Assembly (NCBI GenBank): GCA_016932615.1
Contig: JAFGCN010000017.1
Span: forward strand, 1-49,270
Reading direction: 5' to 3'
DNA length: 49,270 nucleotides
Source: Candidatus Aenigmatarchaeota archaeon
GTDB taxonomy: Archaea > Aenigmatarchaeota > Aenigmatarchaeia > QMZS01
The position numbers and the translations under genes were made by a program. The notes under the pieces are model-generated. The model saw only the letters and a program-made list of their open reading frames with translations. It was not told the origin of the DNA and made no database searches. Shown one piece after another: positions 22,668 to 43,492 of the stretch; position 1 is the first letter of the stretch, and each line of letters begins with the position of its first letter.

Positions 22668-22696
22668 TATTCTCTAATAGGGCGGCTACTGATGAT

Positions 22697-24664: not shown

Positions 24665-24739
24665 AGTTTAAGATAAATGCACTCAGGCACATACTAAGAG
24701 ATATGCTTCCTATAAATACCTCCTCTCCCAATACTAATA

Positions 24740-25486
24740 ATGGTGTGGGAATACGTCTTGGTTGTAATTCTTCTTGCTATTATTGCTTCAGGCCTGCGGC
24801 TTCTTTACCAGTACGAGAGGGGAGTCGTTTTCACGCTTGGAAGGTACAGCCACGTAAAGGACCCTGGGCTTGTCTGGATAGTTCCGGTCTTCCAGACGAT
24901 GAGAAAGATGGACATACGGATAAAGACGTCAGACATTCCGCGCCAGGAAGTCATAACCAAAGATAACATTCCAATTCTTGCAAACACTGTCGTTTACTTC
25001 AAGGTCGAAAAGCCAGCTGATGCAGTCATTAAGATTGAGGACTTCGAGTACGCAGTCCGGCAGTACACCCAGGCGGCCTTAAGGGACGTAGTCGGAAACA
25101 GCGAGCTTGATTTTGTCCTGACGGAAAGGGAAAAGATCGCCTCAAGCATCAAGAAGATTGTCGACAGCGAGACTTCCGGCTGGGGGGTCGACATAGAATC
25201 GATCAAGATTCAGGAGATAGAGCTTCCGGCAGAGATGAAGCGCGCGATGGCAAAGCAGGCAGAGGCCGAGAGGGAAAGGCGCGCGGTAATAATAGCCGCA
25301 GAGGGCGAACTGAAGGCATCCGAGAACCTCAGGAAGGCATCCGAAAACCTGTCCAAAAGCCCGGCGGCAATTCACTTGAGAACTCTTCAGACGATAAGGG
25401 ACATCGCCTCAGACCCTTCGGAAAAAATCGTCCTCTTCCTTCCTTCGGACGCAGGCGACGTGTTTAAACGGGCTTTCAAAAAATAA
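24740..25486 (+). CDS. SPFH/band-7 (stomatin/prohibitin) family membrane protein
   Basis: N-terminal TM followed by YERGVVFTLGRY...IPRQEVITKDNIPILANTVVYFKV and a C-terminal coiled coil with AEAERER, typical of the stomatin-like fold. A TATA-like cctataaatacc lies about 27 nt upstream. Confidence 0.85.
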   Translation: MVWEYVLVVILLAIIASGLRLLYQYERGVVFTLGRYSHVKDPGLVWIVPVFQTMRKMDIRIKTSDIPRQEVITKDNIPILANTVVYFKVEKPADAVIKIEDFEYAVRQYTQAALRDVVGNSELDFVLTEREKIASSIKKIVDSETSGWGVDIESIKIQEIELPAEMKRAMAKQAEAERERRAVIIAAEGELKASENLRKASENLSKSPAAIHLRTLQTIRDIASDPSEKIVLFLPSDAGDVFKRAFKK

Positions 25487-25498
25487 GGTGGCGTAAAA

Positions 25499-26164
25499 AT
25501 GCTTGAAAAAAAGATAAGGTATCTTCAGATTGCGTTTAACGGCGGGCTTTCTTCTGTCGAGGAAATACTTCCGCAGATTCCTGCAAATGAGCGGATTCTT
25601 ATCGAGGCGGGAACTCCATTCATAAAGAAGGAGGGCTTTCGGGGGATAAGGAGAATTTCAGAGCTTTGGAAAGGCATGGTTGTTGCAGACCTCAAGACAA
25701 TGGACGGGGCAGTCGGTGAAGTTGAGCTTGCATATCGCGCCGGAGCGACTGCCGCAACGGTTCTTGGAAGCGCTTCAAAGGAAACGCTTGACCTGTTCAT
25801 AAAAAAGTGCAGCGAATTCCGGATGGTTTCGATGATTGACCTTATCGGGGTCGAAGAGCCGCTAAAAATTCTGTTGGGCTTGAAGGTGCCCCCGTCGGTT
25901 GTGGTGCTTCACAGGGGCCGCGACGAGGAGACGACAAGGGGAAAAGTGATTAAGTACAGGCATATAAACAAGATTAAAAGCAAGTTCGATGTCCTGATTT
26001 CTGCGGCGGGAGGAGTCGACCTCAAGGAGGCGAGCAGCGCGATTTTTAACGGGGCAAACATAGTCGTGGTAAACCTGGTAAGCGAGGACGACCCCTGGAC
26101 GGGGATAGGCCTGGTAGAAGACATACCGAAGGTGGCGGAGGAGTTTTTGGAGACAATAGACTAA
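25499..26164 (+). CDS. Orotidine-5'-phosphate decarboxylase superfamily protein, most similar to 3-hexulose-6-phosphate synthase / KGPDC
   Basis: LQIAFNGG...LIEAGTPFIKKEG...VVADLKTMDGA...AGATAATVLG matches the HPS/KGPDC signature (DhiEvGTPl...aDlKt.D.G). Confidence 0.55.
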   Translation: MLEKKIRYLQIAFNGGLSSVEEILPQIPANERILIEAGTPFIKKEGFRGIRRISELWKGMVVADLKTMDGAVGEVELAYRAGATAATVLGSASKETLDLFIKKCSEFRMVSMIDLIGVEEPLKILLGLKVPPSVVVLHRGRDEETTRGKVIKYRHINKIKSKFDVLISAAGGVDLKEASSAIFNGANIVVVNLVSEDDPWTGIGLVEDIPKVAEEFLETID

Positions 26165-26721
26165 AATTTTCTCCACTTCCCGAATGTTGTTGTTTCATCG
26201 AGCATGTTGTTTTTTTCTTTTGAGAGAAAGCCGATTTTCATGAAGCTCTCGCAGCGCATCTTTCCCTGGATGTAGAGTGACTTGTATTTTCCTGTCGAGT
26301 ATATGCCGGACATCACGCCTTCGAGTGCCAGCAGCTTTTTCAGCCCCTCAAGCTGCTCAACGCCGCCGGAAACTTTTATGAGCCGTTTTTGCGAGGAGAC
26401 TGAACTTTTGCCTTCAAAAAACCCGCGAAGAAAAGCTCTCCTCTTTTCCGAAGTGTCCAGCGCTTCAGTGGGCAGTTTTTCCTTGTCAAAGGGAAGCGAA
26501 AGGCCGATTTTTTTCAAAAGGCCTTCGACCTCTTCTTTTTGGCTAAGCGACACCTCAATTGCTTTTCCCTTTTTTATCCGGGCTTTTCCAAATTCAATAA
26601 GGCGGGAAAAGACAATTTCCGAAAATTCTTCCCGCTTTGTCTGGAATTCTATCCGGTGGCCTTTGCCCAGCTTAACCGAGCCGGAAGCGTACAGGAGCCC
26701 CAAAAGCTCAAAATCTCGCAT
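26161..26721 (-). CDS. Protein with two degenerate LAGLIDADG-like motifs (start at the internal MRDFELLG; the track ORF extends to 26784)
   Basis: ELLGLLYASGSVKL and RRAFLRGFFEGKSSVS sit about 100 aa apart, the spacing of a two-motif LAGLIDADG fold. The first motif lacks the catalytic acidic residue. Confidence 0.3.
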   Translation of the reverse strand: MRDFELLGLLYASGSVKLGKGHRIEFQTKREEFSEIVFSRLIEFGKARIKKGKAIEVSLSQKEEVEGLLKKIGLSLPFDKEKLPTEALDTSEKRRAFLRGFFEGKSSVSSQKRLIKVSGGVEQLEGLKKLLALEGVMSGIYSTGKYKSLYIQGKMRCESFMKIGFLSKEKNNMLDETTTFGKWRKF

Positions 26722-26742
26722 AATATATAAAAGAATCCAAAA

Positions 26743-27702
26743 TTGTGTATGGGGGAAGCAGAGTATGTTAAGGAAATCAAGCATGGCGCAGTTGGTTTCA
26801 AGCTTCCCACTTTGATTGACCTTAATCCTAAAACCGAAAACAGCGTTACCAACAGGGTAGAGACCCCGACAAGCAGGAATTATGTTTCAAGAGACGAAGA
26901 AACAGGAGCAGTAAAGCCCAACAAGCAGAAAGACGCAAGAGAGCTGGCCGGGGAAATTTACCGCAAGATTGGAGATCTTCACGCGAAAGGCAGGAAGCTC
27001 GATGAAATATATGATTTACTTGAGAAGGAGGGCTATGAGTATGCTGCAATCGAGCCGGTTTTCATCGATTATCTTGAGAAGTGCCGCGGTTCTCTGGGGC
27101 AGCAAGGACAGCAACAGCAAAGGCCGCCCGCCGCAAGCCCTGCGCCAGGCACTGCAGGAATGGTTGCTCCAAGGCCGCAGGGAAATCCGTCTTTCCAGGG
27201 AGAGCACGAGCTTGAGCTTGTTGAGATTCACGCAAACCCGCCTGAAATGCCCAAAGCAGAAGAAATGCCAAGAGGCGACAGAAGAATGGAATCCGTTGGC
27301 CAGCCAGGTGCAGAACAGTCGCCTCCCGCAGAGGAGGATGGAATCGGGCGAAGCACTGGGGACTTTGCGCCTCTTTTCGTAAAGGTCGGAAAATACCGGG
27401 AAACGCTCGAGCATCTAAACGACCTTGAAAATTACCTAAAAGGCATGACACGGCTCCTGGAGCTCGTTTCTGAGCTTGAACAGGTGAGGGTCATGAATAT
27501 CTCTGCAATCGAGAAACTGCAGAAAAAGGCGATTGCAACCTCTTCGAAGCTTTCTTCAGGGCTTCTGAAGCCAAGAGGCATGCAGCTGGAAGGCACGAGG
27601 GACAGCGAGGTTGAGCTTACAAAGCTGGGGGATGTCATTTCCGACCTGAGCAAGGAACTAACAATCCTGAAAAAGGAAGTGGATAAGCTGGGGCAGGTAT
27701 AG
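26743..27702 (+). CDS. Hypothetical protein with a Q/P-rich linker and a C-terminal coiled coil
   Basis: 319-aa ORF. Middle region QQGQQQQRPPAASPAPG. The C-terminal ~110 aa have a heptad-like pattern (LELVSELEQVRVMNISAIEKLQKK...LTILKKEVDKLGQ). Confidence 0.4.
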   Translation: MCMGEAEYVKEIKHGAVGFKLPTLIDLNPKTENSVTNRVETPTSRNYVSRDEETGAVKPNKQKDARELAGEIYRKIGDLHAKGRKLDEIYDLLEKEGYEYAAIEPVFIDYLEKCRGSLGQQGQQQQRPPAASPAPGTAGMVAPRPQGNPSFQGEHELELVEIHANPPEMPKAEEMPRGDRRMESVGQPGAEQSPPAEEDGIGRSTGDFAPLFVKVGKYRETLEHLNDLENYLKGMTRLLELVSELEQVRVMNISAIEKLQKKAIATSSKLSSGLLKPRGMQLEGTRDSEVELTKLGDVISDLSKELTILKKEVDKLGQV

Positions 27703-28663: not shown

Positions 28664-28808
28664 AAATATATGTGCGTTATTTGCCTATTTTCCTTGTTTT
28701 TCTGCCTGCCGGCAAGAGCGTTATTTTGATTGGTTCTTTGCCCATTTTCACATTCACTACCTAAAGATACTTTAGCCAGGCATTACATTACGGCTACAAC
28801 TGCTAAAA

Positions 28809-28820
28809 AGTATATATATG
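28809..28820 (+). promoter_or_regulatory. TATA-box-like element upstream of the giant surface-protein gene
   Basis: aaagtatatatatg centred about 30 nt upstream of the ATG at 28848, within a 180-bp non-coding AT-rich region. Confidence 0.3.
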
Positions 28821-28847: not shown

Positions 28848-31800
28848 ATGTCACTGCCTTGGAAAAAGGGGTCGAGCGCTTCATTTAAATTGAGTCTATG
28901 CCTGATAACGCTTATTTTGCTCGCCTTTTGCGTTAATGCGGACACTTATTCGGCGTTTTGCACCACAGGCACCGAAATTTATACAGATAAGCCGGATTAC
29001 GAGCCGGGAGAGACTGTGAATATTACCGGGCACGGCTTTCTGCCAAAGGCACCATTAAATATTACGATTACCCGGCCGGACCGTGTTACCGACTCCTGCG
29101 GCTCTTCTTCCTGCTATTTTAGGTTCTTGAATGGCACCCTGATATCCGACAGGGAAGGGTCTTTTTTTGATTATCTTTACCTTCTTAACGGCATAACCGG
29201 AAATTACACCGTCCGGGTGACTGACGGCAAAAATTATGCGGAATTCTGCTTCATGGATGGCCGGAATATTACAAACGTGACTCTTGACGGCTTAAGCAGC
29301 GTTTCAGTTCTTCCAAGCGCTTCCATTACTGCTGCGGTAACCCTTGTTTCGACATCCGGCAGCTACTGGCGCTCCACAATGTACCAGATTGAGGGTGAAA
29401 GCGCCGTGTGCGTGGATACGCCAGACCACACTGAGTCAGGAACTCACACTTATACAGAGCCCTTTTCAATAACAGCCCCTTCTGCGCCCGGCGTTTATGA
29501 TGCCAGTTTTATCGCTTATCTTAACAATGACTGTACAGGAAGCAGCCCAAGCAATACCTATACTTTAATCGACGGCATAACAGTCACATCTGACGCCGTA
29601 TGCGGCGATGGGGAGATTGAAGCGCCCGAATCCTGCGATGATGCTAATACCGACGATGCTGACGGCTGCTCGTCTTCCTGCCAGGTGGAATCCGGCTGGT
29701 CCTGCGCTGGTGAGCCAAGCTCTTGCGCAGAAGTGTGCGGAAATGGCATAATAACTGCAACCGAGGAGTGTGATGATGCCAACACTGATGACTCCGATGG
29801 ATGCGGCTCATCCTGCGCCATTGAAGCCGGTTGGTCCTGCACAGGTGAGCCGAGTGAGTGCCTGGTGTATAATCCTGCCCTTCCAAGCTCTTGCGGAATA
29901 GATATTGCGCTTATTATAGACAATTCCGGGAGCATTGACAACTCGGAGCTCACGGCAATGAAAAACGCGTTTAAGGGCTTTGTTGACGCTTTCCTGCCGG
30001 ATACCCCCACCCACATAGCGGTTGTCAAGTTCAATACTGATGGAGACCTTGTTTTGGACTATAGCGGAGACGCAACCGAAATAAAGAATGCAATTGATTC
30101 GGTGTCGACAAGCGATGGCTACACCAACTGGGACGATGGGCTAAAGGAGGCGCAGGATGAGTTTGACAACTCGCCAAAGCCGGACTTGTACGTTTTTGCT
30201 TCTGACGGGCAGCCGAACCGCCATGGCGACCCGGCAGTGGATGGAGAGCCCGAGTCTCTTGCTGCAGCTATAGAAAGGGCAAACCAGTTAAAGCTGTCTG
30301 GCGTAAGGATAATCACTCTTGGAATTGGCGTTACAGGTGACGGCGCTTCCAACCTTAAAGCAATCTCAAGCGAGGATGCCTACTATTCCTCAGGATTTGA
30401 CACCCTTGCGGATGACTTGGCTGACCTTGCCGATGAGCTTTGCGGAGGCACGATAACAGTAAGGAAGCTGGTTGACGGAAGCCCTGCAGGCGGCTGGGAA
30501 TTTTCGGCAAGCGTAACCGATGGAGAATCAATCCCGGCAACTTCCACAACCGGTGAAGATGGCTTCATAGACCCGGTTTTTGACATAAACATAACAGACA
30601 CGGTTTCAACTGTGGACATAACAGAAACTCCCAAGCAGGGATATAATTTTGTCAGCGCAGCTTGCAAAGACCAGGATGAAAATCCGGTGGGAACGCCTGG
30701 CGTTGGAACGGTTACTGGAATAGTGATTGGTCCAAATGATGCGGTTTACTGTGAATTTAACAACAGCGGGGTTTTGTGCAGCGAGCACTCCAATTCAGAG
30801 TCCTGTGAGGAAGATGAGGGCTGCAAGTGGTGCCCTTCCTGCAACAACCCTTTCAGGAATGTTTATTATCCTCTCGGAAACTGCATAAGCGAGTCTGCTG
30901 AATGCGCCTGGAATGGCTGCTCGGTCGAATGCGGAGCCGAGTGCGATACTGAGACTCCATGCCTTCCAAAGCAGGATGAGAATTACTGCTACTATGGCGG
31001 AGAATGCAATTCCTCATGCTTATGCGGTTACTTGTCCCAGTTCTGCCCACCACCTGGGACTGAAGATAATGGAACCTGCTACTATGGCGAGCAGTCCTGC
31101 ACCGAAAACGGCTGCCAGGTTACAAGCGCAGAAATGTCTTGCCCGGGGCTTGTTTGCGATGAGATTCTTGGCCCTGTGGACATGATTGGGCCTGTAACCA
31201 GTAATTTCACTGCTGACCCGATTCCACCTCAATTCCTTCCAGGGCCACTTCCAGCAAAGTGGCTGGTAAACATCAGCGCCCTTGAAACAGAGGACTGCTC
31301 GAATGTTTCTGCTGCGGAATATTTTGTTTCAAAGAATGTTTGCTATTATCCTCCGGACACTGAGAGGGGAACGCCTATGGGTGCGCTTGACGGCTCTTTT
31401 GGCGGGCTTGTGGAATTGGTAAACACAACTCACACATTTAATGAGGAAAACGACGGGCTTTACTGCTTTTCCATAAGGGGCAAAAACGACGCTGGCTACT
31501 GGGGCAATATATACTGCGACTGCATAAATGTGGATACCCAGGTTCCGCTTGACCCGACAAATGTTACGCTTACGCCTTATATATGCAACCAGAACAGGAC
31601 TTTGAACGCAAAGGTCTGTGACGCAGAGTCGGATGTTGTGGGCGGCGAATATTATTTTGACATATTTACGGACTGGATTCCTGGCGGGCAGGGCCTTTTG
31701 ATGTATGTGCAGAGCCAATATGTACTTGAAGAGCCCGAAGGAAGATATTTTTGCGCTAACCTGAATGCCACTATAGACGTCACAAATGTGTCTGATGGCT

Positions 31801-34800
31801 GCCACTGGGTGCGGCTTCACGGAGTGGATGATGCTGGAAACTGGGGAAAGCCAAGCCCCAACTACCAGCACAAGTTTATACTTGATAAGACCCCTCCAAG
31901 GACAAACAAGATGATTAATGGAACGGTTATTCCTTGCGATTTGGCAGATGACGGCGAGGGCAACGCGCTTGACGCAGGGTGCTTTTACACCGTGCAGGGA
32001 ACCGAGATTCTTCTCGAAGGGTTTGATGACCTTGGGTCCCAGAACGAATCCTGCCGGGCGGAATCCCTGACAACCTGGTACAGAATCAGATGGAGAAATA
32101 ACTGGACAAGCCCTTGGGAGGACTGGTCAATCTGGACTCTTTACAGGGAGCCGATTGTCCTGAGAGAAGACTCAATACACGAGATAGAATATTATTCTGA
32201 AGACTCGTGTGGAAACGCGGAAACTCACCACTACGAGCTTGACATAGTTGACACTGCGGAGCCGAAAACCGAAAAAACAATTGAAGGAGTAAGGCTTGAA
32301 GGCGACGGCCAGACTTTTGACTGGTGGATTACCCAGGAGTCGACAATTATCCTTAACTGTACAGATACTGACCCTCACCCTGTCAGCGGAGTAACTCTTT
32401 ACTGGAGGTATAAGGTGGATGGTGGGAACTTTACCGGCTGGAATGAGGTGTTTGGAGGATATGATGCTTTCAGCTATCCTGAAGACTCGGTTCACACACT
32501 GGAATATTACTGCACGGATATTCTTGGAAACAGGGAAGAAACGCAGGTTGAGGTCGACAAGGTGGACACAACCCCGCCTGAAACTAACAAGACTTATGGC
32601 TGGCCATTGTTCGATACTGATGGCTCATACCCCAAGTGGATAAACTCCAGCACTCCCGTCACATTGGAATCAACTGACGGCGGCGAAATATGCGCAGTCG
32701 GAGTCGATAAGACTTACTGGATGAACACGATAGTTAACGATTATATGTGCGAGGAAGCGCCTCTAAACTGCCAGCCAGTCCATGACTTCGAGGATGAGGG
32801 CTGGACAGAATATACTGCCCCGTTCTACAAGACTGAAACCTCATGCCACCTTATAGAATACTGGTCTGAAGACAGGCTTGGAAACCGCGAGAGAATAAAA
32901 GCCCAGTGCGTATTCGTGGATAACGAGCCGCCGGTAAGCGTGAAAGGCATTCAGGGGCCTCAGATAGAAACTGACTGCAGGGAGATTGGTGAGGGTAACT
33001 ACTCGGATGGCTGCTATTATGTGACAACTGAAACTGAGGTCACCTTGGAATGCCGGGACTCTCTACCACACCCGGTCGGAAACGTTGATTTATTCTACAA
33101 AATCGACTGGAAGAATGCTACAGGAGACACCTGGATTTCCGGAACCTGGATAAAAAGCACAAACCCGGTTACATTTTCGTACGAAAATGATTCTTTCCAC
33201 CTGCTCGAGTGGTACTGCATAGACGCCCTTGGAAATGCCGAAGAAGTTAGAACCGAGCTTGACATGGTTGATTCAAGCCCGCCTGAGGTAGTAAAGCAAG
33301 TGAACGGCGCCCTAATGGGAAACAGCACTATTGATTGGTACCTCAATGGCACTTCAAACATCACACTCAACTGCACGGATGTCATGCCCCACCCTGTCGG
33401 CGACGTTACGCTTAACTGGACTTTATACTGGAGCGAGGAGTGTATCAGGCCGGACTGGGAGGAGCTTGCAAGTGGAGTCACCGATGGCTACAAGTCATTT
33501 ACAAGCTTCAGGGATTCCTGCCACAAGCTGGTTTACTGGTGCTCTGACGCCCTTGAAAACACGGGCCCTCTTACAGAAGAAATTGACGCTGTTGACACCA
33601 AGCCGCCGGTTTCATGGAAGGATATTAACGGCACGTACGTAAACTGCACAGAGGGAGAGGTTTGCGACAAGTGGATTACCCAGAATACACTTCTTGAGCT
33701 TTACTGCGAAGACCAGGCCCCTCACCCCGTGGGCGGCGTTAAGATTTATTACAGGTACTTTGTGGATGATGTCCTCTTCCAGGACTGGACAGAATACACA
33801 AGGGCGATAAATTATGGCGAGGACTCGGTTCACCGGCTTGAGTGGTATTGCGTCGATGCACTTGGCAATAAGGAAGAGACCCAGGTTGAAATTGATAAGG
33901 TGGACACAACCCCACCTGAAATGAACAAGATTATCGGAGAGCCGAAGATTGAATGCACTGAAGGTGAGGGCTGCGATTACTGGCTTCGCGACCACTACAC
34001 AAATATCACCCTCGACCCTGTTGATGGAGGAGACGTTTGCGCAATAGACCGGGTGCAGTGCGATTACTGGTACCTTGTAAACAACACGACCTGGGAAGGG
34101 CCGTTTGAATACAGGGGGCCGATAGTGTTTACTGAGGACTGCCTTCACGAGCTCCACATTTCCTGCCGTGATGCCTTAGGCAATGTAGTTAACGATACTG
34201 AACTTTTCAGGGTTGACTCACAGCCGCCGGTTACTGTCAAGAGCTTTATCGGCCCGAAGTATCCTGCCTCCGAAAAGGACGAGGAGCAGTTTGAGCTTAC
34301 TGAAGAGCAGGCAGAAAACTTTTGGATGAGGGACCATGTGACTGTAGTTGAGCTTAACGCGACAGACACAATAGAGCCATGTGCTGTCGGCATAAGAGAG
34401 TTGTGGTACCGGGTTGGAAAGGACATGGACGGAGACGAAATGGTCGATGGATTGGAGATGGGCAACTGGAGCGTCGTTACAGGAAGCTATGTAAACTTCA
34501 CGGTTAATGAGGACTGCCTTCACAAAATTGAGTGGTACTCAGTGGATATGCTTGGAAACACTGAGGAAAAGCGGTCCCAATACCATAGGGTCGATTCAAC
34601 GCCGCCGGTTACAACAAAGACTTTCGATGGCCCTACCTGGGACGACACAGACAAGACAAATCCCTACTGGGAAAATTACTGGGTTTCAAATGAAACTGAT
34701 ATAATACTTTTGGCAGTCGATGAGGCAAGCCCTTGCGCTGTTGGCGTGGACTACATACACTACGAACTCTGGTGGGACTCTGACGGTGACGGAGAAGTCG

Positions 34801-37800
34801 ACATGAAGATTGATGATGAAAATGCCTCCTCTTCAATCGTTACAATTAACCTTGAGCGGGACTGCATTCACAAAATTGTCTGGTATGCAGTAGACCTTCT
34901 TGGAAACCCTGAAGATGAGCATATACAGTACCACAAGGTAGACCAGACCCCACCCAGGACTTACAAGCTGATTGAAGGGTCGATGTGCAATGCAACTGAA
35001 GAGGACCTAGAGCTATTCAACCTCACTCTTGATGAGGAAATAGAGTCCTTCTGGCTTACAAGCAACTCTACCATAACACTCTCAGCGGTTGAGGGGATGA
35101 CTAACTGCTCATCAGGGCTTGACCACCTTCACTATGAGGTTTGGTACAGCGAGGACGGAACTGGAGATGAGTGGGTGAAGTTGGATGAACAGGACGTGCC
35201 TGCAAACGGAAGCTCAGAACTAAACACTACCCTAACTCTTGGCGAGGACTGCCTTCACAAAATTGTCTGGTATGCCGTCGACCGGGTTGAAAATATAGAA
35301 AAGGTACACATTCAGTACCACAGGGTCGACAACCACGCGCCTGAAATCCTGAAGGAAGTCGGCTGGCCAAGTATTTACATGGGCAAAAACCCTCAGACCG
35401 GAGAGGATGCCTGGGATATTACCACCGATACTCCGATAAGCCTTGATGGGACTTACGATGCTCTTGAGCCGTGCGCTTCGGGAAGGACAAAGATCGAGTA
35501 CAGCATATGGTACGATGGAAGCGGAATCTGGGACAGCTGGAAGACTTACACTGGAGAGTTTAACCTTCTTGGCGACTCCACCCACCGGCTGAAAGTGAGG
35601 GTCACGGACTGCCTGGGAAACACAGTTGAAGATATAGAGACTTTCGTGGTCCATGAGAATCTTCCGGGTGAGGAATGCAAGGTTCCAATAAAGTACTCAG
35701 GAATGTTTGGCTGGGAGTGGCGTTCAGTAGAGATACCTGAGATGATGGTGGACCTGTACACAAACGACTCGAGAATGTGGAATGTCATGAAGCTCATGGA
35801 AGGACAGTATGATATCATCTACTTCCAGGACTACCTTACTGGGGACTGGACCTCTTATGACCCTGAGCGGCTGAACAACGAAACAGGAGAGCCGATGAAC
35901 AGCCTGAATGATTTTGACCAGGGTCCCGGAAAGTATTATATAAAGCTCAAGGATGACGCAAGGTACATGAGCTACTTTGTCATTTTCAATGACCTTCGGG
36001 AGGGCTGCTCCATGGATCTTACGGAGTGCTGGGACCGGCTCGATAACGATGCTGATGGGTACTGGGATTACCCTTACGATACGGAGTGCCTGGATAGAGA
36101 GGATGGCCTTGAGATTTCCGTTTGCGGAAATGGCATCACGGAGCGGTTTGAGGAATGCGATGACAATAACACGCAGGGAGGAGATGGTTGCTCAGAGGAA
36201 TGCACGCTTGAGCTGGTAAATGACTCCTGCGTTTCCGAGAAAGGTTATACTCTTAATGCCGATTTCGATGAAGGCACTTTGTCGGGTCTGGAACACACCA
36301 CCGTCCCAGACCAGCTTCAGATTATTGAGGGGCAGGTTACGACCTACCCGATACTTTGGGTTGCAAATGCCGGGGAAGATTCTGTTTCGAAATGGGACAC
36401 TTCGCAGAATAGGGAGCTTGCAAGGTACCACACCTGGTTTGGAGTTCTTGCTGACCATGGGGCATGGTCTGGCGCTGCCCCATCCAGGACGGCAGTTGAC
36501 ACTGACGGAAACTGCTATGTCGCAAACAGGCACTTTGACGATTACCCGGCAGATGTCATAAAGATTCTTGCAAATGACTGGATTGACAGGAACGGAAACG
36601 GGATAATGGACACTTCATATGACGCAAACAATAATTCAGTAATCGAGGGGGGGGAAATGCTCCCAATGAATGACACAAATGGAAACGAAAGGATTGACCC
36701 CGAGGAGATAACCGATGAGAGGGTTGCCTGGGTTGCGACTGTCGGGCCTTCAAGTGGCCTTGGAAGGGGGCTTGCAATAGACCTCGAAGGAAATATCTGG
36801 CTTGGCCTTTTCAATGAAAGGTCCTACTATAAGCTTAACGGGACTGACGGAAGTGTAATTCAGGGCCCGATTTATGTTGGGGCGCACACGCCTTATGGCG
36901 CTTTGGTCGACCGATATGGCTTCCTTTGGGGCGCATCCCTTGACAATAACCTGCTTAAGCTTGACACCAATACAGGAAACTGGACGATTTATACGCACAG
37001 CGGCAGCAACTATGGAATTGCTCTTGGATATGACTCTGAGGGCAGCACCCAGGTTTATCTTGGGTACCATAACCCTTACCTTCAGTTTAATTCTTCCGAT
37101 GAGACCTTCAGCCAGCCGGCAACTTCAGACTATTATTCTTATGGAGTTGCGACGGATTCAGAAGGGAACATCCTTTCCGGCAGCAACTCGGATGGCCGCA
37201 TGGGAAAATACGCGCCTGATGGAAGCTTGATATGGCTTGCTCCTGCACAGGTGGCCTCTGAGATAAGAGGCACTGTTGTTGACAGTGATGATAATGTCTG
37301 GGCAATTCACAGGGGAGACAGCAAGATGGCAAAGTTCAACGGAACTGATGGGTCTCCTTTAGGTGTGTTTGACACGGGACTTCAGCCATATACCTATAGT
37401 GATGCAAGCGGGCTCGGGCTTAGGGGCTCTATTTCAGTTGGGGTATGGACGGTTGTCTTTGACTCGAAAAAGAACGGAACTTCTTTTGACGCGGTTTCCT
37501 GGACGGGCTATTCCCCTAACGGGACATCAATTACCGTGAAGGTGAGAAGTTCTTCAGATAATTTGTCCTGGTCCTCCTGGGAGACTGCGCAAAATGGCGT
37601 TTCTCTCAGCACAACACCTGATGGAAGGTATCTTCAGGTTGAAGCTACTTTGAAGGGTGTTGCAGGTTCCGAGTCACCAATACTTTATGACTTGTCTGTT
37701 CAGGCGACCTGTTCAGACGATCTGGATGCAAGGATTGATTCATGCACAGACCTTGATGGGGATGGTTATTCCATAGAGGGAGAGGATTGCGGTCCTGTCG

Positions 37801-38471
37801 ACTGCAACGATGGCAATAACGCCTCCTGGAGGGTTGGCACCTTCTATTATGACGGTGACGAGGATGGGTTCCACCTTTGGGGAGAGGAAAACCAGAATGA
37901 AGAAGACCTGTTTTCGATATGCTACGGCTCTGAAATCCCAATTGGTTACTCGGAAAGCACTTCCGGGAGGGATTGCGATGATGATGATTCTGCAGTAAGC
38001 CCTGCAGCGCAGGAGATTTGCAATAACACTATTGATGACGATTGCGATGGCCTGGTTGACTGCGATGATGAGCAGTGCGAAGCTGAATGCTCTGAGGAAG
38101 AAAGCGGGAACGGCGCAGAAGATGAGCTTTCCTGCGAGCCGGAGCTTACTTGCGATTATGGAATATGCGCGGATGACTCCTGGTGCATGGACAATGTCTG
38201 CACGCCGCAGGGCTATGAAATCGGAAGATTTGTGTCCGAGAGCGTTACGAGCTGGAATTATGGCTGCGACGCTTACTGCGGCTCAACAACCTCGCAAAAC
38301 CAGTGCGCCTCCTCTGAAGGCGATGCAATAGGCACTGCTGCCTGCGGGAGGTGCGAGTGCTGGCACGATACCGAAACGAGCTGCGCTGATGAACTTGACA
38401 ATGACTGCGACGAATTGATTGATTGTGATGACCCTGACTGTAGTCAGGATGATAATTGCATTCCTGTGTGA
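28848..38471 (+). CDS. Giant secreted multidomain surface protein (3207 aa): signal peptide, Cys-rich repeats, vWA, about 11 tandem Ig-like repeats, beta-propeller-like region, MopE-like Cys/Asp repeats
   Basis: Signal peptide MSLPWKKGSSASFKLSLCLITLILLAFCVNA. CGDGEIEAPESCDDANTDDADGCSSSC and CGNGIITATEECDDANTDDSDGCGSSC at nt ~29596-29860 (a third copy near 36118-36213). vWA metal-ion-binding (MIDAS) motif IALIIDNSGSID (~29901). About 11 repeats of ~115 aa, each ending in ...H.LE(W/Y)YC.D.LGN.E......VD.TPP.T.K, at nt ~31885-35680. NGTDGS-containing propeller-like repeats at ~36350-37440. C-terminal DLDGDGYS...DCNDGN / DCDDDDS...CNNTIDDDCDG motifs. No TM or C-terminal anchor. Confidence 0.8.
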   Translation: MSLPWKKGSSASFKLSLCLITLILLAFCVNADTYSAFCTTGTEIYTDKPDYEPGETVNITGHGFLPKAPLNITITRPDRVTDSCGSSSCYFRFLNGTLISDREGSFFDYLYLLNGITGNYTVRVTDGKNYAEFCFMDGRNITNVTLDGLSSVSVLPSASITAAVTLVSTSGSYWRSTMYQIEGESAVCVDTPDHTESGTHTYTEPFSITAPSAPGVYDASFIAYLNNDCTGSSPSNTYTLIDGITVTSDAVCGDGEIEAPESCDDANTDDADGCSSSCQVESGWSCAGEPSSCAEVCGNGIITATEECDDANTDDSDGCGSSCAIEAGWSCTGEPSECLVYNPALPSSCGIDIALIIDNSGSIDNSELTAMKNAFKGFVDAFLPDTPTHIAVVKFNTDGDLVLDYSGDATEIKNAIDSVSTSDGYTNWDDGLKEAQDEFDNSPKPDLYVFASDGQPNRHGDPAVDGEPESLAAAIERANQLKLSGVRIITLGIGVTGDGASNLKAISSEDAYYSSGFDTLADDLADLADELCGGTITVRKLVDGSPAGGWEFSASVTDGESIPATSTTGEDGFIDPVFDINITDTVSTVDITETPKQGYNFVSAACKDQDENPVGTPGVGTVTGIVIGPNDAVYCEFNNSGVLCSEHSNSESCEEDEGCKWCPSCNNPFRNVYYPLGNCISESAECAWNGCSVECGAECDTETPCLPKQDENYCYYGGECNSSCLCGYLSQFCPPPGTEDNGTCYYGEQSCTENGCQVTSAEMSCPGLVCDEILGPVDMIGPVTSNFTADPIPPQFLPGPLPAKWLVNISALETEDCSNVSAAEYFVSKNVCYYPPDTERGTPMGALDGSFGGLVELVNTTHTFNEENDGLYCFSIRGKNDAGYWGNIYCDCINVDTQVPLDPTNVTLTPYICNQNRTLNAKVCDAESDVVGGEYYFDIFTDWIPGGQGLLMYVQSQYVLEEPEGRYFCANLNATIDVTNVSDGCHWVRLHGVDDAGNWGKPSPNYQHKFILDKTPPRTNKMINGTVIPCDLADDGEGNALDAGCFYTVQGTEILLEGFDDLGSQNESCRAESLTTWYRIRWRNNWTSPWEDWSIWTLYREPIVLREDSIHEIEYYSEDSCGNAETHHYELDIVDTAEPKTEKTIEGVRLEGDGQTFDWWITQESTIILNCTDTDPHPVSGVTLYWRYKVDGGNFTGWNEVFGGYDAFSYPEDSVHTLEYYCTDILGNREETQVEVDKVDTTPPETNKTYGWPLFDTDGSYPKWINSSTPVTLESTDGGEICAVGVDKTYWMNTIVNDYMCEEAPLNCQPVHDFEDEGWTEYTAPFYKTETSCHLIEYWSEDRLGNRERIKAQCVFVDNEPPVSVKGIQGPQIETDCREIGEGNYSDGCYYVTTETEVTLECRDSLPHPVGNVDLFYKIDWKNATGDTWISGTWIKSTNPVTFSYENDSFHLLEWYCIDALGNAEEVRTELDMVDSSPPEVVKQVNGALMGNSTIDWYLNGTSNITLNCTDVMPHPVGDVTLNWTLYWSEECIRPDWEELASGVTDGYKSFTSFRDSCHKLVYWCSDALENTGPLTEEIDAVDTKPPVSWKDINGTYVNCTEGEVCDKWITQNTLLELYCEDQAPHPVGGVKIYYRYFVDDVLFQDWTEYTRAINYGEDSVHRLEWYCVDALGNKEETQVEIDKVDTTPPEMNKIIGEPKIECTEGEGCDYWLRDHYTNITLDPVDGGDVCAIDRVQCDYWYLVNNTTWEGPFEYRGPIVFTEDCLHELHISCRDALGNVVNDTELFRVDSQPPVTVKSFIGPKYPASEKDEEQFELTEEQAENFWMRDHVTVVELNATDTIEPCAVGIRELWYRVGKDMDGDEMVDGLEMGNWSVVTGSYVNFTVNEDCLHKIEWYSVDMLGNTEEKRSQYHRVDSTPPVTTKTFDGPTWDDTDKTNPYWENYWVSNETDIILLAVDEASPCAVGVDYIHYELWWDSDGDGEVDMKIDDENASSSIVTINLERDCIHKIVWYAVDLLGNPEDEHIQYHKVDQTPPRTYKLIEGSMCNATEEDLELFNLTLDEEIESFWLTSNSTITLSAVEGMTNCSSGLDHLHYEVWYSEDGTGDEWVKLDEQDVPANGSSELNTTLTLGEDCLHKIVWYAVDRVENIEKVHIQYHRVDNHAPEILKEVGWPSIYMGKNPQTGEDAWDITTDTPISLDGTYDALEPCASGRTKIEYSIWYDGSGIWDSWKTYTGEFNLLGDSTHRLKVRVTDCLGNTVEDIETFVVHENLPGEECKVPIKYSGMFGWEWRSVEIPEMMVDLYTNDSRMWNVMKLMEGQYDIIYFQDYLTGDWTSYDPERLNNETGEPMNSLNDFDQGPGKYYIKLKDDARYMSYFVIFNDLREGCSMDLTECWDRLDNDADGYWDYPYDTECLDREDGLEISVCGNGITERFEECDDNNTQGGDGCSEECTLELVNDSCVSEKGYTLNADFDEGTLSGLEHTTVPDQLQIIEGQVTTYPILWVANAGEDSVSKWDTSQNRELARYHTWFGVLADHGAWSGAAPSRTAVDTDGNCYVANRHFDDYPADVIKILANDWIDRNGNGIMDTSYDANNNSVIEGGEMLPMNDTNGNERIDPEEITDERVAWVATVGPSSGLGRGLAIDLEGNIWLGLFNERSYYKLNGTDGSVIQGPIYVGAHTPYGALVDRYGFLWGASLDNNLLKLDTNTGNWTIYTHSGSNYGIALGYDSEGSTQVYLGYHNPYLQFNSSDETFSQPATSDYYSYGVATDSEGNILSGSNSDGRMGKYAPDGSLIWLAPAQVASEIRGTVVDSDDNVWAIHRGDSKMAKFNGTDGSPLGVFDTGLQPYTYSDASGLGLRGSISVGVWTVVFDSKKNGTSFDAVSWTGYSPNGTSITVKVRSSSDNLSWSSWETAQNGVSLSTTPDGRYLQVEATLKGVAGSESPILYDLSVQATCSDDLDARIDSCTDLDGDGYSIEGEDCGPVDCNDGNNASWRVGTFYYDGDEDGFHLWGEENQNEEDLFSICYGSEIPIGYSESTSGRDCDDDDSAVSPAAQEICNNTIDDDCDGLVDCDDEQCEAECSEEESGNGAEDELSCEPELTCDYGICADDSWCMDNVCTPQGYEIGRFVSESVTSWNYGCDAYCGSTTSQNQCASSEGDAIGTAACGRCECWHDTETSCADELDNDCDELIDCDDPDCSQDDNCIPV

Positions 38472-38482
38472 GGTGACTTAAG

Positions 38483-39373
38483 ATGAACGCAAAACTTGTT
38501 TTGGCTGGTTTTTTCTTGCTTCTGGTGTCTGTGGCTCCTGCATTTGCCGCTTTTCCGGGAGACTGGTGGGGACGAGCTTATGTAGGAAGCGACCTTGCGC
38601 CTGACGGGACTCCCGTAAGCGCTTACATTGACGGGGAGTTGTATGACACGACCCTTGTTGGGGAGAGGATTGGCCCTGGCTACTATGAGCTTATTGTTTC
38701 AGATGCAGATGAAGGCGACACAATCGTGTTTAAGATTGGCTCAGTTGAAGCGCAGGAGGGGGCTGTTTTTTCTGATGGCTCTCACGAGCAGCTTGACCTG
38801 ACGCTTGCTGGCCCCGCGTGTGGCGACACACTATGCAACGGAGAGGAGTCTTCTTCCACCTGCCCTGAAGATTGCCCTCCAGCCCAGACCACTTCCTCGA
38901 GCAGTTCCAGCCATTCATCAAGCTCGTCTATAACCCCTTCTTCTTCATCAAGCTCGGATGATGTCGAGGGGCTTGAGTGGGTTACGGTAAATAAAACAGA
39001 AAAATGCAGCGAGAACTGGACTTGTGAGGACTGGTCAGAGTGCATAAATGGTTTCCAGACCAGGGTTTGCATAGACCTTAATGATTGCTCCACATTTGAT
39101 GATATGCCTCCAGTGTCACAGGAGTGTGATTTCTCGTCGGTTGAAGTTACCTGCGGTGACGGCATATGCAGCCCCGGGGAAATATGCGAAGCAGACTGCG
39201 CGCCTAAGACAGAGAGCCCAAGCGAGAATGGTGACGACTTGCTTACCAATATATTTACAGGAAGGTTCCTTACAAGCCCTACCGGGATAGGTATTGGGAT
39301 TTTGCTCCTGCTTTTGATTGGCTTGGGATATTACTTTTTTATCTACAGGAAGAAAAAGAAAACTGCAGAATAA
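38483..39373 (+). CDS. Secreted Cys-rich protein with a Ser-rich linker and a C-terminal TM anchor plus KKKK stop-transfer tail
   Basis: Signal peptide MNAKLVLAGFFLLLVSVAPAFA. CGDTLCNGEESSSTCPEDCP and CGDGICSPGEICEADC motifs. TTSSSSSSHSSSSSITPSSSSSS linker. C-terminus GIGIGILLLLLIGLGYYFFIYRKKKKTAE. Starts 12 nt after the giant gene. Confidence 0.6.
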   Translation: MNAKLVLAGFFLLLVSVAPAFAAFPGDWWGRAYVGSDLAPDGTPVSAYIDGELYDTTLVGERIGPGYYELIVSDADEGDTIVFKIGSVEAQEGAVFSDGSHEQLDLTLAGPACGDTLCNGEESSSTCPEDCPPAQTTSSSSSSHSSSSSITPSSSSSSDDVEGLEWVTVNKTEKCSENWTCEDWSECINGFQTRVCIDLNDCSTFDDMPPVSQECDFSSVEVTCGDGICSPGEICEADCAPKTESPSENGDDLLTNIFTGRFLTSPTGIGIGILLLLLIGLGYYFFIYRKKKKTAE

Positions 39374-41952: not shown

Positions 41953-42149
41953 TATAAAATAAAATACCTTCAAAATTATGAATATGTGGCAAAAACTCAA
42001 GGAAATCCGGAAAACCTCCAAATTCCTGAAGGTTACCCCCGAGCAGGCACCTAGTACCTTAAGAAGGTTCAAGAAAGAGATTGAAGAGAAGAAATAATGC
42101 TTGAATAGTTATATTTAGATTATTGATTATTATAGTCATTGTTTTTGAC

Positions 42150-42227: not shown

Positions 42228-42252
42228 TATTCGATTGCCTAAAGGCTCTTAG

Positions 42253-43389: not shown

Positions 43390-43492
43390 ATCCTCAAGAC
43401 ACTCGGATAATCGCTAGAGGAAGCAATTCAATTATAATGCAACGTTGTGGGATGCACCGTATTATCCAGTATGCCCTATTTAGTAATATGCT

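What the first reader, a model, noticed from the sequence alone, without database searches (positions are those of the whole stretch)
28848..38471. 3207-aa secreted giant protein combining Myxococcales-type Cys-rich repeats, vWA, about 11 Ig-like tandem repeats, a beta-propeller and MopE-like repeats
The giant ORF has a cleavable-looking signal peptide but no TM segment and no C-terminal sorting motif. It carries two adjacent CGxGxxExxExCDDxNxxDxDGCxxxC repeats (and a third 6 kb downstream), which is the signature of the so-called Myxococcus cysteine-rich repeat. After these come a vWA domain with an intact MIDAS, a long Cys-rich EGF-like stretch, about 11 tandem ~115-aa beta-sandwich repeats separated by VD-TPP-T-K linkers, a region of NGTDGS-type blade repeats and a C-terminus with DLDGDG / DCDDxD / CNNTIDDDCDG motifs of the MopE-like putative metal-binding type. 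This mixture of repeat classes in a single archaeal protein is unusual. It suggests a calcium-dependent, heavily glycosylated adhesin or matrix protein, possibly acquired or assembled by domain shuffling.
Basis: partly seen in the sequence, partly recalled or inferred. Interest (0 to 1): 0.75.

Follow-up and report, generated by a model that had tools for sequence, protein, structure and literature searches.

The report
Giant surface adhesin of DPANN archaeon
This is a real 3207-residue secreted, modular, adhesin-like surface protein of an uncultured Aenigmarchaeota (DPANN) archaeon; it is one member of a family of similar giants, and each of them is paired with a small membrane-anchored partner gene, so it is interesting but not exceptional.

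Summary
The ORF (28848-38471, +) is real. The identical protein is already in NCBI as 'VWA domain-containing protein [Candidatus Aenigmarchaeota archaeon]'.
- Sec signal peptide and no other hydrophobic segment.
- Three TIGR02232/DUF4215 Cys repeats.
- A VWA domain with intact MIDAS.
- Eleven divergent ~105-125-aa tandem Ig-like units, which match NCBIfam's OmpL47-type domain (AF2 pLDDT 92).
- A seven-bladed beta-propeller plus beta-sandwich (pLDDT 95).
- A borderline MopE-like Cys/Asp tail.

The 'EGF-like' label has no HMM support. The repeats are not repeated at DNA level, so a collapse artefact is unlikely.

The architecture is not unusual for its lineage. At least 13 giants of 1.8-4 kaa share the 660-aa N-terminal head at 50-64% identity and the Ig-like stalk, but carry different C-terminal modules; those that could be placed come from DPANN MAGs. 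The propeller is a mobile module, 45-63% identical to stand-alone proteins of distant phyla.

New here: in 9 of 9 loci examined, a gene just downstream encodes a signal peptide, stalk and TM-anchored protein. In one further homologue it is fused to the giant. It is the likely anchor for the anchorless giant.

Verdict: new member of a known kind (giant adhesin-like proteins of episymbiotic archaea); function is inferred, not shown.

The parts
28807..28820 (+). A/T-rich TATA-like box (AAAGTATATATAT) about 30 nt upstream of the ATG; possible archaeal promoter giving a very short leader
   Evidence: Read directly from the sequence. It is a consensus resemblance only and was not tested.
28848..38471 (+). 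Giant gene, 3207 codons plus stop
   Evidence: The identical protein is in NCBI as a VWA domain-containing protein of a Candidatus Aenigmarchaeota MAG, on a contig of 49270 bp (P0001).
28848..28940 (+). Sec-type signal peptide (aa 1-31: K-rich n-region, h-region LSLCLITLILLAF, then VNA|D)
   Evidence: It is the only hydrophobic window in the protein. A31 is invariant in the family alignment.
28941..29597 (+). N-terminal 'head', apparently two tandem domains (aa 32-250), family-specific, with no Pfam model
   Evidence: Only a weak MG2 hit (19 bits) and no PDB sequence hit. It is 40-60% identical in the family. In 1.84e9 representatives, 1029 clusters match at E<1e-3 and 24 at E<1e-30, mostly at protein N-termini; many match only aa ~138-248, hence the two-domain reading. 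No structure was predicted for it.
29598..29867 (+). Two adjacent Myxococcus-type Cys-rich acidic repeats (TIGR02232 / DUF4215), aa 252-278 and 297-323 with flanks
   Evidence: TIGR02232 scores 91.5 bits for this piece; Pfam DUF4215 matches; regex positions are.
29883..30446 (+). von Willebrand factor A domain with complete MIDAS (D358, S360, S362, T426, D453)
   Evidence: PF00092 scores 56.1 bits and PF13519 37.9 bits. The MIDAS residues are invariant in 7 homologues.
30447..30773 (+). Prealbumin-like (SpaA_4 / CnaB-like) beta-sandwich, aa 534-642
   Evidence: PF24514 scores 31.9 bits against 27.3 on the isolated piece and 22.7 on the whole protein. Together with the VWA domain it is 43-46% identical to proteins of CPR bacteria.
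30774..31172 (+). Cys-rich stretch (21 Cys in 133 aa), unclassified
   Evidence: Counts are. There is no Pfam or NCBIfam hit. Some homologues have weak Dicty_CTDC or faint Disintegrin hits here.
31173..31880 (+). aa 776-1011: conserved in the family, probably two more divergent beta-sandwich domains ending in VDTQVPLDP and LDKTPP linkers
   Evidence: The linker motifs are, and homologue alignments run through this region. No HMM hit. The fold was not predicted.
31881..35648 (+). Eleven tandem Ig-like (OmpL47-type) units of 103-129 aa, each beginning with VDxxPP
35676..35963 (+). aa ~2277-2372: domain that forms the extreme C-terminus of several family members (motif ..YWSxGWN..FFLP..WYYDG..W..)
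   Evidence: It is 24-30% identical to the C-terminal regions of P0002, P0004, P0007 and the L008 giant. It has no family model.
36006..36203 (+). Short MopE-like motif (CWDRLDNDADGYWDYPYDTEC) followed by the third TIGR02232 repeat (aa 2426-2452); junction before the propeller
   Evidence: TIGR02232 scores 42.1 bits for the 30-aa piece; regex position is. The MopE-like label on the short motif is my reading of the sequence, not an HMM hit.
36225..37712 (+). Seven-bladed beta-propeller plus C-terminal beta-sandwich (aa 2460-2955), a mobile module also found as a stand-alone secreted protein
36585..36707 (+). Three EF-hand-like loops (DRNGNGIMD, DANNNSVIEGGE, DTNGNERIDPEE) inserted in blade 2 of the propeller
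   Evidence: The sequence is. D2580, N2582, D2609 and E2620 are invariant, and D2592 and E2603 nearly invariant, in 70 homologues. In the model the insert is a non-strand segment at residues 120-171.
37713..38468 (+). Cys/Asp-rich C-terminal tail (26 Cys, 28% D+E) with MopE-like motifs
   Evidence: PF11617 scores 30.8 bits against 27 on the piece and 22.6 on the whole protein. NF033662 scores 31.2 against 41.
38470..38476 (+). Shine-Dalgarno-like GGTGA overlapping the giant's stop codon (TGAGGTGActtaagATG)
   Evidence: Read from the sequence. It implies co-transcription and possibly coupled translation with the next gene. This is inference.
38483..39373 (+). Partner gene: 296-aa type-I membrane protein (signal peptide, ~85-aa beta domain, Ser-rich stalk, WxCxxWSxC..QTRxC Cys motif, TGxFL, TM helix, KKKK tail)
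   Evidence: Translation is and features. A gene of the same build lies 5-100 nt downstream of the giant in all 9 loci examined, the window's own included. It is fused to the giant in P0014.

Best explanation
The gene encodes a Sec-exported, disulfide-rich, probably N-glycosylated fibre-like surface protein of an Aenigmarchaeota (DPANN) cell, used for attachment to another cell or to a matrix.

Shown:
- A signal peptide and no membrane segment.
- A conserved ~660-aa N-terminal head: a family-specific region that looks like two domains, two DUF4215 repeats, a VWA domain with complete MIDAS, and a prealbumin-like domain.
- A stalk of 11 Ig-like units, possibly 13.
- A seven-bladed propeller carrying three conserved EF-hand-like loops.
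- An acidic Cys-rich tail.

Inferred:
- The MIDAS head binds an acidic ligand through a divalent cation. The VWA + CnaB-like tip adhesins of Gram-positive pili are my analogy for this (from memory).
- The Ig-like stalk projects the head tens of nanometres from the cell.
- The C-terminal propeller and Cys-rich part lie near the membrane or add a second specificity, either lectin-like or enzymatic.
- The protein has no anchor of its own. It is held on the cell by the co-transcribed small type-I membrane protein encoded 11 nt downstream.

The gene belongs to a family (placed members are DPANN) built by module exchange on a constant head and stalk.
For: Domain evidence:
- The MIDAS and EF-hand-like residues are invariant across homologues.
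- Sequons are enriched 2.4-fold, z about 8.
- There is one hydrophobic segment only.

Host lineage:
- The context is archaeal (FEN1, kleisin, tRNAs longer than standard, probably intron-bearing).
- NCBI labels the source Aenigmarchaeota.
- Relatives sit in Aenigmatarchaeota and Micrarchaeota-labelled MAGs and in an MAG labelled only 'uncultured archaeon'.

Family: at least 13 giants share the head at 50-64% identity and carry 4-10 stalk units, with variable C-termini.

Anchor partner:
- It is present in 9 of 9 loci examined.
- A Shine-Dalgarno-like sequence overlaps the giant's stop codon.
- It is fused in frame in P0014. That locus is syntenic with L001 and lacks a separate partner gene.
- MopE motifs sit in the giant's tail here but in the partner's ectodomain in L002 and L008.

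Precedents:
- Giant surface proteins of DPANN archaea are proposed host-interaction devices (PMC10266531).
- OmpL47 is reported as a surface-exposed Leptospira protein (title of PMC2698987; I did not open the paper).
- DUF4215 proteins occur in diatom adhesive trails (bioRxiv 10.1101/2023.03.06.531300).
Against: - There is no experimental datum for this protein or any homologue: no expression, localisation, ligand or host.
- The link between giant and partner rests on synteny, one fusion and domain migration. No interaction was modelled or measured.
- The partner's N-terminal domain comes in two unrelated flavours, which is odd for a conserved docking interface.
- The orientation (head distal, C-terminus proximal) is inferred only from the fusion and from MopE migration.
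- The propeller module is 45-63% identical across phyla. Such conservation is more typical of an enzyme or a specific receptor than of a generic adhesion domain.
- Whether this organism N-glycosylates proteins was not checked.
Confidence: 0.6

Rival explanations
1. It is a structural envelope or matrix component (S-layer-associated or released matrix protein) rather than a specific adhesin. In this reading it builds or decorates the cell's own surface layer, and the partner protein is simply another envelope protein.
For: - Heavy sequon enrichment and high Cys content fit envelope glycoproteins.
- VWA domains also mediate matrix assembly (bioRxiv 10.1101/2023.03.06.531300).
Against: - From my general knowledge, S-layer proteins are usually of moderate size, and I would not expect their distal modules to be swapped between close relatives as they are here.
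- The intact MIDAS and the long Ig-like stalk are typical of adhesins.
Confidence: 0.2
2. It is a tethered enzyme. The highly conserved propeller module would be catalytic (lyase- or lactonase-like) and act on a host or environmental polymer, while the head and stalk only position it.
For: - The module is 45-63% identical across Euryarchaeota, Lokiarchaeum, Chloroflexota, Planctomycetes and Proteobacteria, with more than 45 invariant positions.
- Some homologues carry the source label 'streptogramin lyase'.
- Stand-alone homologues carry dockerin, PKD or EF-hand accessories, as secreted enzymes do.
Against: - No catalytic residues could be assigned.
- Pfam Vgb_lyase and SGL hits are far below threshold (13.9 against 50 and 19.8 against 26.3).
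- Only one other family member (P0002) has the module, so it is accessory to the family's common function.
- This rival is not exclusive of the adhesin model.
Confidence: 0.15
3. The ORF is an assembly or annotation artefact: collapsed or chimeric repeats, or a read-through of several genes.
For: It comes from a metagenome-assembled contig. Long repeat-rich genes are prone to mis-assembly, and reads were not available.
Against: - The repeat units are only 28-50% identical at protein level, and there is no DNA-level tandem repeat.
- The frame is open for 9.6 kb.
- Independent assemblies from JGI, ENA and NCBI give collinear homologues of 1.8-4 kaa.
- Each domain boundary gives a confident fold.
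Confidence: 0.02

Closest known systems
Uncharacterised giant VWA/DUF4215 proteins in DPANN and unassigned metagenome contigs (P0002-P0014; L008 Aenigmatarchaeota LacPavin MAG; L007 Micrarchaeota-labelled MAG)
   Same: They share the signal peptide, the N-terminal head region, DUF4215 repeats, the VWA domain with MIDAS, and the prealbumin-like domain at 50-64% identity. They also share the Cys-rich stretch, 4-10 OmpL47-type Ig-like units and a downstream anchored partner gene.
   Different: The C-terminal modules differ. The propeller is shared only with P0002. Others end in the 'YWSxGWN' domain, a lamin-tail domain or other domains, and one (P0014) carries the anchor in the same polypeptide. 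None has been studied experimentally, as far as the literature searches show.
Giant 'SPEARE'-type surface proteins of Nanohaloarchaeota (e.g. SVXNc_0300, 9409 aa; PMC10266531)
   Same: They are very large Sec-exported proteins of DPANN episymbionts with tandem Ig-like/fibronectin-like domains, proposed to mediate host interaction.
   Different: Those proteins are described as membrane-anchored, are 2-3 times longer and contain a VirB4/TraG-like ATPase domain (PMC10266531). Here no TM segment and no ATPase domain was found. No sequence relationship to them was found or tested directly.
Leptospira OmpL47 and the NCBIfam OmpL47-type domain (NF047446)
   Same: The tandem units match the domain model (151.9 bits in total; 9 of 11 units hit individually). 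OmpL47 is reported as surface-exposed (title of PMC2698987; PMC2935396 also discusses it; neither paper was opened).
   Different: It is not an OmpL47 orthologue: the equivalog model NF047441 scores 96 bits against a cutoff of 250. Matches cover only the C-terminal two-thirds of the 68-position model. The predicted fold is an Ig/FN3/PKD-like sandwich rather than a membrane barrel.
VWA-containing tip adhesins of Gram-positive sortase pili (RrgA / SpaC type; from my own knowledge, not tested here)
   Same: A MIDAS-bearing VWA domain is combined with CnaB/prealbumin-like domains on an extracellular fibre. CPR-bacterial homologues of the VWA+SpaA core exist, and one ends in LAETG + TM, a sortase-like signal.
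   Different: The archaeal giant has no LPXTG signal and no pilin polymerisation. It uses a long in-cis Ig-like stalk and a separate anchor protein.
Stand-alone secreted propeller proteins (P0121-P0240; e.g. Lokiarchaeum ossiferum NEF87_001643, 'hypothetical protein')
   Same: The ~495-aa module (seven blades, EF-hand-like insert, C-terminal sandwich) is collinear with them and 45-63% identical.
   Different: Those are 550-1200-aa proteins with a signal peptide or dockerin, PKD or collagen accessories. Here the module is grafted onto the end of a 2400-aa adhesin scaffold.

Membership tests
Myxococcus-type cysteine-rich acidic repeat (TIGR02232 / Pfam DUF4215) | HMM score above the curated cutoff; CGxGxxExxExCDDxNxxxxDGCxxxC spacing | tested here: met
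   TIGR02232 scores 87.5 bits against 20.8 with 3 stretches: 91.5 bits for the pair and 42.1 for the third alone. PF13948 scores 44.5 against 27. A regex finds exactly 3 copies.
von Willebrand factor A domain (PF00092) | HMM above the gathering score, and a complete MIDAS (DxSxS ... T ... D) | tested here: met
   The score is 56.1 bits against 23.8. D358, S360, S362, T426 and D453 are present and invariant in the family alignment A1. Metal binding itself was not tested.
OmpL47-type domain (NCBIfam NF047446) | Domain HMM above the curated cutoff | tested here: met
   The whole protein scores 151.9 bits against 40, with 6 stretches. Single units score 17-30 bits each, and only over model positions ~10-63 of 68, so membership rests on the summed score.
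Leptospira OmpL47 orthologue (NCBIfam NF047441 equivalog) | Equivalog HMM above the cutoff of 250 bits | tested here: not met
   The score is 96.1 bits against 250.
Ig-like / FN3 / PKD-like beta-sandwich fold (tandem units) | Confident all-beta sandwich model with structural matches to Ig-like domains | tested here: met
Beta-propeller (NHL/YVTN/SBBP-like) | Closed toroid of 4-stranded blades; sequence or structure match to known propellers | tested here: met
MopE-like putative metal-binding motif (PF11617) | HMM above the gathering score of 27 bits | tested here: inconclusive
   The score is 22.6 bits on the whole protein (below the cutoff) and 30.8 bits on the isolated C-terminal 253 aa (above it), with one stretch at aa 3042-3071. 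The related NF033662 scores 31.2 against 41. Copper or other metal binding was not tested.
SpaA_4 prealbumin-like fold domain (PF24514) | HMM above the gathering score of 27.3 bits | tested here: inconclusive
   The score is 22.7 bits on the whole protein and 31.9 bits on the isolated 107-aa piece, covering profile positions 1-106 of 107.
   There is no Pfam or NCBIfam hit at E<=1 or E<=0.01 for this piece.
Archaeal C-terminal sorting signals (PGF-CTERM, PEF-CTERM, Loki-CTERM, GGIII-CTERM) | C-terminal motif + TM helix + basic tail, matched by the NCBIfam model | tested here: not met
   The giant has no C-terminal hydrophobic segment and no such hit. The partner protein has a TM helix and KKKK tail, but only sub-threshold hits (GGIII-CTERM 14.9 against 22; Loki-CTERM 12.1 against 19.9).
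Nanohaloarchaeal SPEARE-type giant proteins | Membrane anchorage in the same polypeptide and a VirB4/TraG-like ATPase domain (PMC10266531) | tested here: not met
   No TM segment beyond the signal peptide. No ATPase family appears in the Pfam or NCBIfam scans.
RTX / type-1-secreted giant adhesins (SiiE, MpIBP type; features from my own knowledge) | No N-terminal signal peptide, C-terminal RTX repeats and a T1SS signal | tested here: not met

The most novel reading that the evidence does not exclude
The giant protein and the small downstream type-I membrane protein form a conserved two-component attachment apparatus, found so far in DPANN MAGs. It consists of an anchorless VWA-headed fibre docked, perhaps by disulfides between Cys-rich modules, onto a dedicated glycosylated stalk-and-anchor subunit. 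Modules such as the MopE repeats or the whole anchor move across the gene boundary during evolution. The C-terminal propeller would be a horizontally acquired, calcium-dependent module of a widespread but still nameless family that sets host or substrate specificity.
Probability: 0.35. Interest if true: 0.6.

Novelty: new member of a known kind. Interest (0 to 1): 0.38.

Why it matters
DPANN archaea are thought to live attached to host cells, but the molecules that make the contact are almost unknown outside a few cultivated lineages. This locus gives a concrete, testable candidate for Aenigmarchaeota:
- a MIDAS-bearing head that can be expressed and tested for binding;
- a likely anchor partner;
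- a conserved family in which constant and host-variable parts can be compared.

Two by-products may be more broadly useful. The N-terminal head region (about 1000 clusters) and the ~495-aa EF-hand-bearing propeller module (hundreds of proteins across bacteria and archaea, up to 63% identical) both lack a Pfam model and a known function.

In itself, a giant modular adhesin-like protein in a DPANN genome is expected rather than surprising.

Tried and rejected
1. Collapsed-repeat artefact: rejected. Tandem Repeats Finder found no array in the repeat region, and the units are only 28-50% identical.
2. Homologue search with the head alone (aa 31-250) in the word-indexed database returned one 141-aa fragment, although known homologues exist. 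This is a limitation of the index and is uninformative. The exhaustive HMMER search then found 1029 clusters.
3. Known C-terminal sorting domains in the partner proteins: only sub-threshold hits. I therefore do not claim an archaeosortase-type signal, despite a recurring TGxFL motif before the TM helix.
4. PDB sequence searches for the repeat pair and the head found nothing at E<=1.
5. Pfam on the repeat units, the Cys-rich stretch, aa 776-1011 and aa 2268-2424 gave nothing meaningful.
6. The afdb50 fold library was unavailable, so no annotated AlphaFold neighbours of the propeller were obtained.
7. Literature searches for Aenigmarchaeota + von Willebrand + surface found no paper. A full-text check of one DPANN paper (PMC10936187) gave nothing relevant.
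8. Atypical base composition as a sign of recent transfer of the whole gene: GC is 0.49-0.51 against 0.45-0.50 nearby, which is not distinctive.
9. SPEARE-type and RTX-type classifications were considered and rejected (see the membership tests).
Full report
**The observation**

The window carries a single 9624-nt ORF at 28848-38471 on the + strand, encoding 3207 aa. The exact protein is already public as 'MAG: VWA domain-containing protein [Candidatus Aenigmarchaeota archaeon]', on a contig of 49270 bp, that is, this window (P0001). The neighbourhood is archaeal: FEN1, a kleisin-like protein, archaeal-type ThrRS, EF-1alpha, and two tRNAs longer than standard and so probably intron-bearing.

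There is one hydrophobic segment only (aa 8-30), followed by VNA|D. The C-terminus is acidic and not hydrophobic. The protein contains 129 Cys and 17.8% D+E.

**Domain inventory, N to C**

1. Signal peptide, aa 1-31.
2. A family-specific head, aa 32-250, with no Pfam model. There is only a weak MG2 hit at 19 bits and no PDB sequence hit. Many database matches cover only aa ~138-248, which suggests two tandem domains. No structure was predicted for it.
3. Two adjacent TIGR02232/DUF4215 repeats, scoring 91.5 bits.
4. A VWA domain, aa 352-519, at 56.1 bits. The MIDAS residues D358, S360, S362, T426 and D453 are invariant in seven family members.
5. A prealbumin-like SpaA_4 domain, aa 536-640. It scores 31.9 bits as an isolated piece and 22.7 bits in the whole protein, against a cutoff of 27.3.
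6. A Cys-rich stretch, aa 643-775, with 21 Cys and no family match. The 'EGF-like' label is therefore unsupported.
7. aa 776-1011, conserved in homologues and ending in VDxxxP-type linkers, but without an HMM hit.
8. Eleven tandem units, aa 1012-2267, each opening with VDxxPP.
   - They match NCBIfam's OmpL47-type domain NF047446: 151.9 bits in total, and 9 of 11 units hit individually at 17-30 bits.
   - They do not match the OmpL47 equivalog (96 bits against 250).
   - An AF2 model of unit 6, built on 36 units, has pLDDT 92 and is an eight-stranded sandwich.
9. aa ~2277-2372, a domain that forms the extreme C-terminus of several homologues.
10. A short motif that I read as MopE-like, followed by the third TIGR02232 repeat at aa 2426-2452, scoring 42.1 bits.
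11. aa 2460-2955, modelled with pLDDT 95 and pTM 0.91.
    - I count seven blades from the strand list, plus a C-terminal beta-sandwich.
    - The sequence matches the PknD NHL propeller at E 1.4e-12.
    - Blade 2 carries three EF-hand-like loops whose liganding positions are invariant or nearly so in 70 homologues.
12. An acidic Cys-rich tail, aa 2956-3207, with a borderline MopE match (30.8 bits on the piece, 22.6 on the whole protein, cutoff 27).

**Artefact check**

The units are 28-50% identical at protein level. Tandem Repeats Finder sees no array in the repeat region. Independent assemblies give collinear homologues. I consider an assembly artefact very unlikely, although reads were not available.

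**Glycosylation**

There are 65 N-x-S/T sequons, against 27.6 +/- 4.7 in 2000 shuffles (maximum 44). The reversed motif occurs 25 times. This is a real enrichment and is consistent with selection for N-glycosylation. The glycosylation machinery of the organism was not examined.

**The family**

Thirteen proteins of 1.8-4.0 kaa (P0002-P0014) align with the giant, and the giant of an Aenigmatarchaeota MAG (L008, 3369 aa) does likewise.
- They share the first ~660 aa at 50-64% identity.
- P0002-P0014 contain 4-10 OmpL47-type units.
- The organism-labelled genome scan places relatives in Aenigmatarchaeota and Micrarchaeota-labelled MAGs and in an MAG labelled only 'uncultured archaeon'.
- The VWA+SpaA core alone is 43-46% identical to proteins of CPR bacteria (Paceibacterota, Parcubacteria). 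These have their own anchors, and one ends in LAETG + TM.
- An exhaustive HMMER search with the head alone finds 1029 clusters at E<1e-3 and 24 at E<1e-30. Most matches lie at the N-terminus of proteins ranging from 140 to 3900 aa.

The C-termini vary:
- The propeller is shared only with P0002, at 53% identity.
- P0003, P0004, P0007, P0009, P0010 and L008 end with or near the 'YWSxGWN' domain.
- P0005 and P0008 end in a lamin-tail domain.
- P0006 and P0011 end in another domain.

This is a recurrent architecture.

**The propeller module is mobile**

A search with the C-terminal 798 aa returned 864 proteins at E<=1e-5. The best 120 cover aa ~2460-2955 at 45-63% identity. Many are ~550-700-aa stand-alone proteins; others are longer and carry further domains. 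Most have no Pfam annotation. Named sources include Euryarchaeota, Methanoperedens, Lokiarchaeum ossiferum, Chloroflexota, Planctomycetes, Zoogloea and Chitinivorax. Some are fused to dockerin, PKD, EF-hand or collagen modules. Such high identity across phyla, with more than 45 invariant positions, suggests a specific conserved activity, either ligand binding or catalysis, and horizontal spread.

**The partner gene (new here)**

Eleven nucleotides after the giant's stop codon, and preceded by GGTGA overlapping that stop (TGAGGTGActtaagATG), starts a 296-aa ORF at 38483-39373. It encodes, in order:
- a signal peptide;
- an ~85-aa beta-rich domain;
- a Ser-rich stalk;
- a WxCxxWSxC..QTRxC Cys motif;
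- a TGxFL motif;
- a TM helix;
- a KKKK tail.

Oligo-T tracts follow it.

A gene of the same build lies 5-100 nt downstream, on the same strand, in all nine loci examined: the window itself, L001-L006, L008 and L013. The N-terminal domain occurs in two flavours, and the Cys or MopE modules are optional.

Two further observations link the pair:
- In P0014 the giant itself ends with such an anchor: an FN3-like domain 37% identical to the L006 partner (E 7e-7 in a small database), a G/S/T stalk, FFLG, a TM helix and a basic tail. Its locus, L012, is syntenic with L001 but lacks a separate partner gene.
- MopE motifs sit in the giant's tail in this window but in the partner's ectodomain in L002 and L008.

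Together, the synteny, one gene fusion and the domain migration across the gene boundary argue that the two products act as one unit and that the giant's C-terminal end is the membrane-proximal one. No known sorting-domain model reaches threshold on the partners.

**Mechanism proposed**

Shown: export signal, domain composition, conserved MIDAS and EF-hand-like residues, family modularity and conserved gene pairing.

Inferred: the protein is a glycosylated, disulfide-stabilised fibre.
- Its conserved VWA head binds a ligand through a divalent cation.
- Its stalk of 11 Ig-like domains, possibly 13, projects the head by roughly 40-50 nm. That figure is my estimate, from about 4 nm per Ig-like domain.
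- Its base is tethered to the cell through the small type-I membrane protein.
- The propeller adds a calcium-dependent second function.

This fits what is proposed for giant surface proteins of other DPANN archaea (PMC10266531), but no experiment exists for this family.

**Rivals**

- A structural envelope or matrix protein. The top structural match is an S-layer protein.
- A tethered enzyme. The propeller is strongly conserved and has lyase and lactonase neighbours. This rival is not exclusive of adhesion.
- An assembly artefact, which is very unlikely.

**Comparison with known systems**

The protein is a bona fide carrier of TIGR02232/DUF4215, VWA and OmpL47-type domains. MopE and SpaA_4 membership is borderline, passing on the isolated pieces but not on the whole protein. 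It is not:
- an OmpL47 orthologue;
- a SPEARE-type protein, since it has no TM segment and no ATPase domain;
- an RTX/T1SS adhesin, since it has a Sec signal and no RTX repeats;
- a sortase or archaeosortase substrate.

**Verdict**

This is a new member of a known kind. Modest extra value comes from the conserved anchor partner and from two widespread families that have no model yet (the head and the propeller module).

Noticed in passing
window 38483-39373 (+): A 296-aa type-I membrane protein gene starts 11 nt after the giant's stop codon, with an SD-like GGTGA overlapping that stop. It encodes a signal peptide, a beta domain, a Ser-rich stalk, a WxCxxWSxC Cys motif, a TM helix and a KKKK tail. 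It is conserved downstream of the giant in 9 of 9 loci and fused to it in P0014.
   Followed up: yes
window 36225-37712 (aa 2460-2955 of the giant); proteins P0121-P0240: The propeller + sandwich module belongs to a widespread family with no Pfam model. Members are 45-63% identical across Euryarchaeota, Lokiarchaeum, Chloroflexota, Planctomycetes and Proteobacteria. Three EF-hand-like loops and more than 45 positions are invariant. Function is unknown, and some sources label members 'streptogramin lyase'.
   Followed up: partly
window 28941-29597 (aa 32-250): The N-terminal head has no Pfam model yet matches 1029 clusters at 50% identity (24 at E<1e-30). The matches lie mostly at the N-terminus of proteins of 140-3900 aa. 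Many match only aa ~138-248, which suggests the second half also occurs alone as a separate domain.
   Followed up: partly
window 2141-6013 (+) and 6015-7262 (+): A second large VWA-containing protein (1290 aa, VWA_2 + DUF2341) is followed directly by a 415-aa ORF without a Pfam hit. This may be another surface-protein pair on the same contig.
   Followed up: no
window 42147-42232 and 43276-43390 (+): There are two tRNA genes longer than standard and so probably intron-bearing. ARAGORN calls an 86-nt tRNA-Asp, and Rfam calls a 115-nt tRNA. Each program found only one of the two.
   Followed up: no
window 22000-25000: GC dips to 0.40, against 0.45-0.50 elsewhere, around a Schlafen-group-3-like helicase gene (22697-24664, -). 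This may be a defence or mobile island.
   Followed up: no
window 26161-26784 (-); L006 5213-5641 (-): A free-standing LAGLIDADG-domain ORF lies 2 kb upstream of the giant gene. Another LAGLIDADG ORF lies immediately upstream of the homologous giant in L006.
   Followed up: no
L001 18878-20680; L012 13000-14760: A secreted-type S8 peptidase gene lies one to three genes downstream of the giant in two syntenic homologous loci. It is not present in this window. It might process the giant protein.
   Followed up: no
L010 2870-6640; L011 3025-5460: CPR bacteria (Paceibacterota, Parcubacteria) encode 1256- and 811-aa proteins with the same VWA + SpaA-like core (43-46% identity) and DUF4215 repeats. 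The L011 protein ends in LAETG + TM, a sortase-like signal. The module is thus shared between the two groups of ultra-small episymbionts.
   Followed up: partly
downstream partner proteins of window, L001-L006, L008: A recurring TG(L/A/R)F(L/I) motif sits about 10 residues before the TM helix and basic tail. It is reminiscent of a C-terminal sorting signal, but no NCBIfam sorting-domain model reaches threshold.
   Followed up: partly
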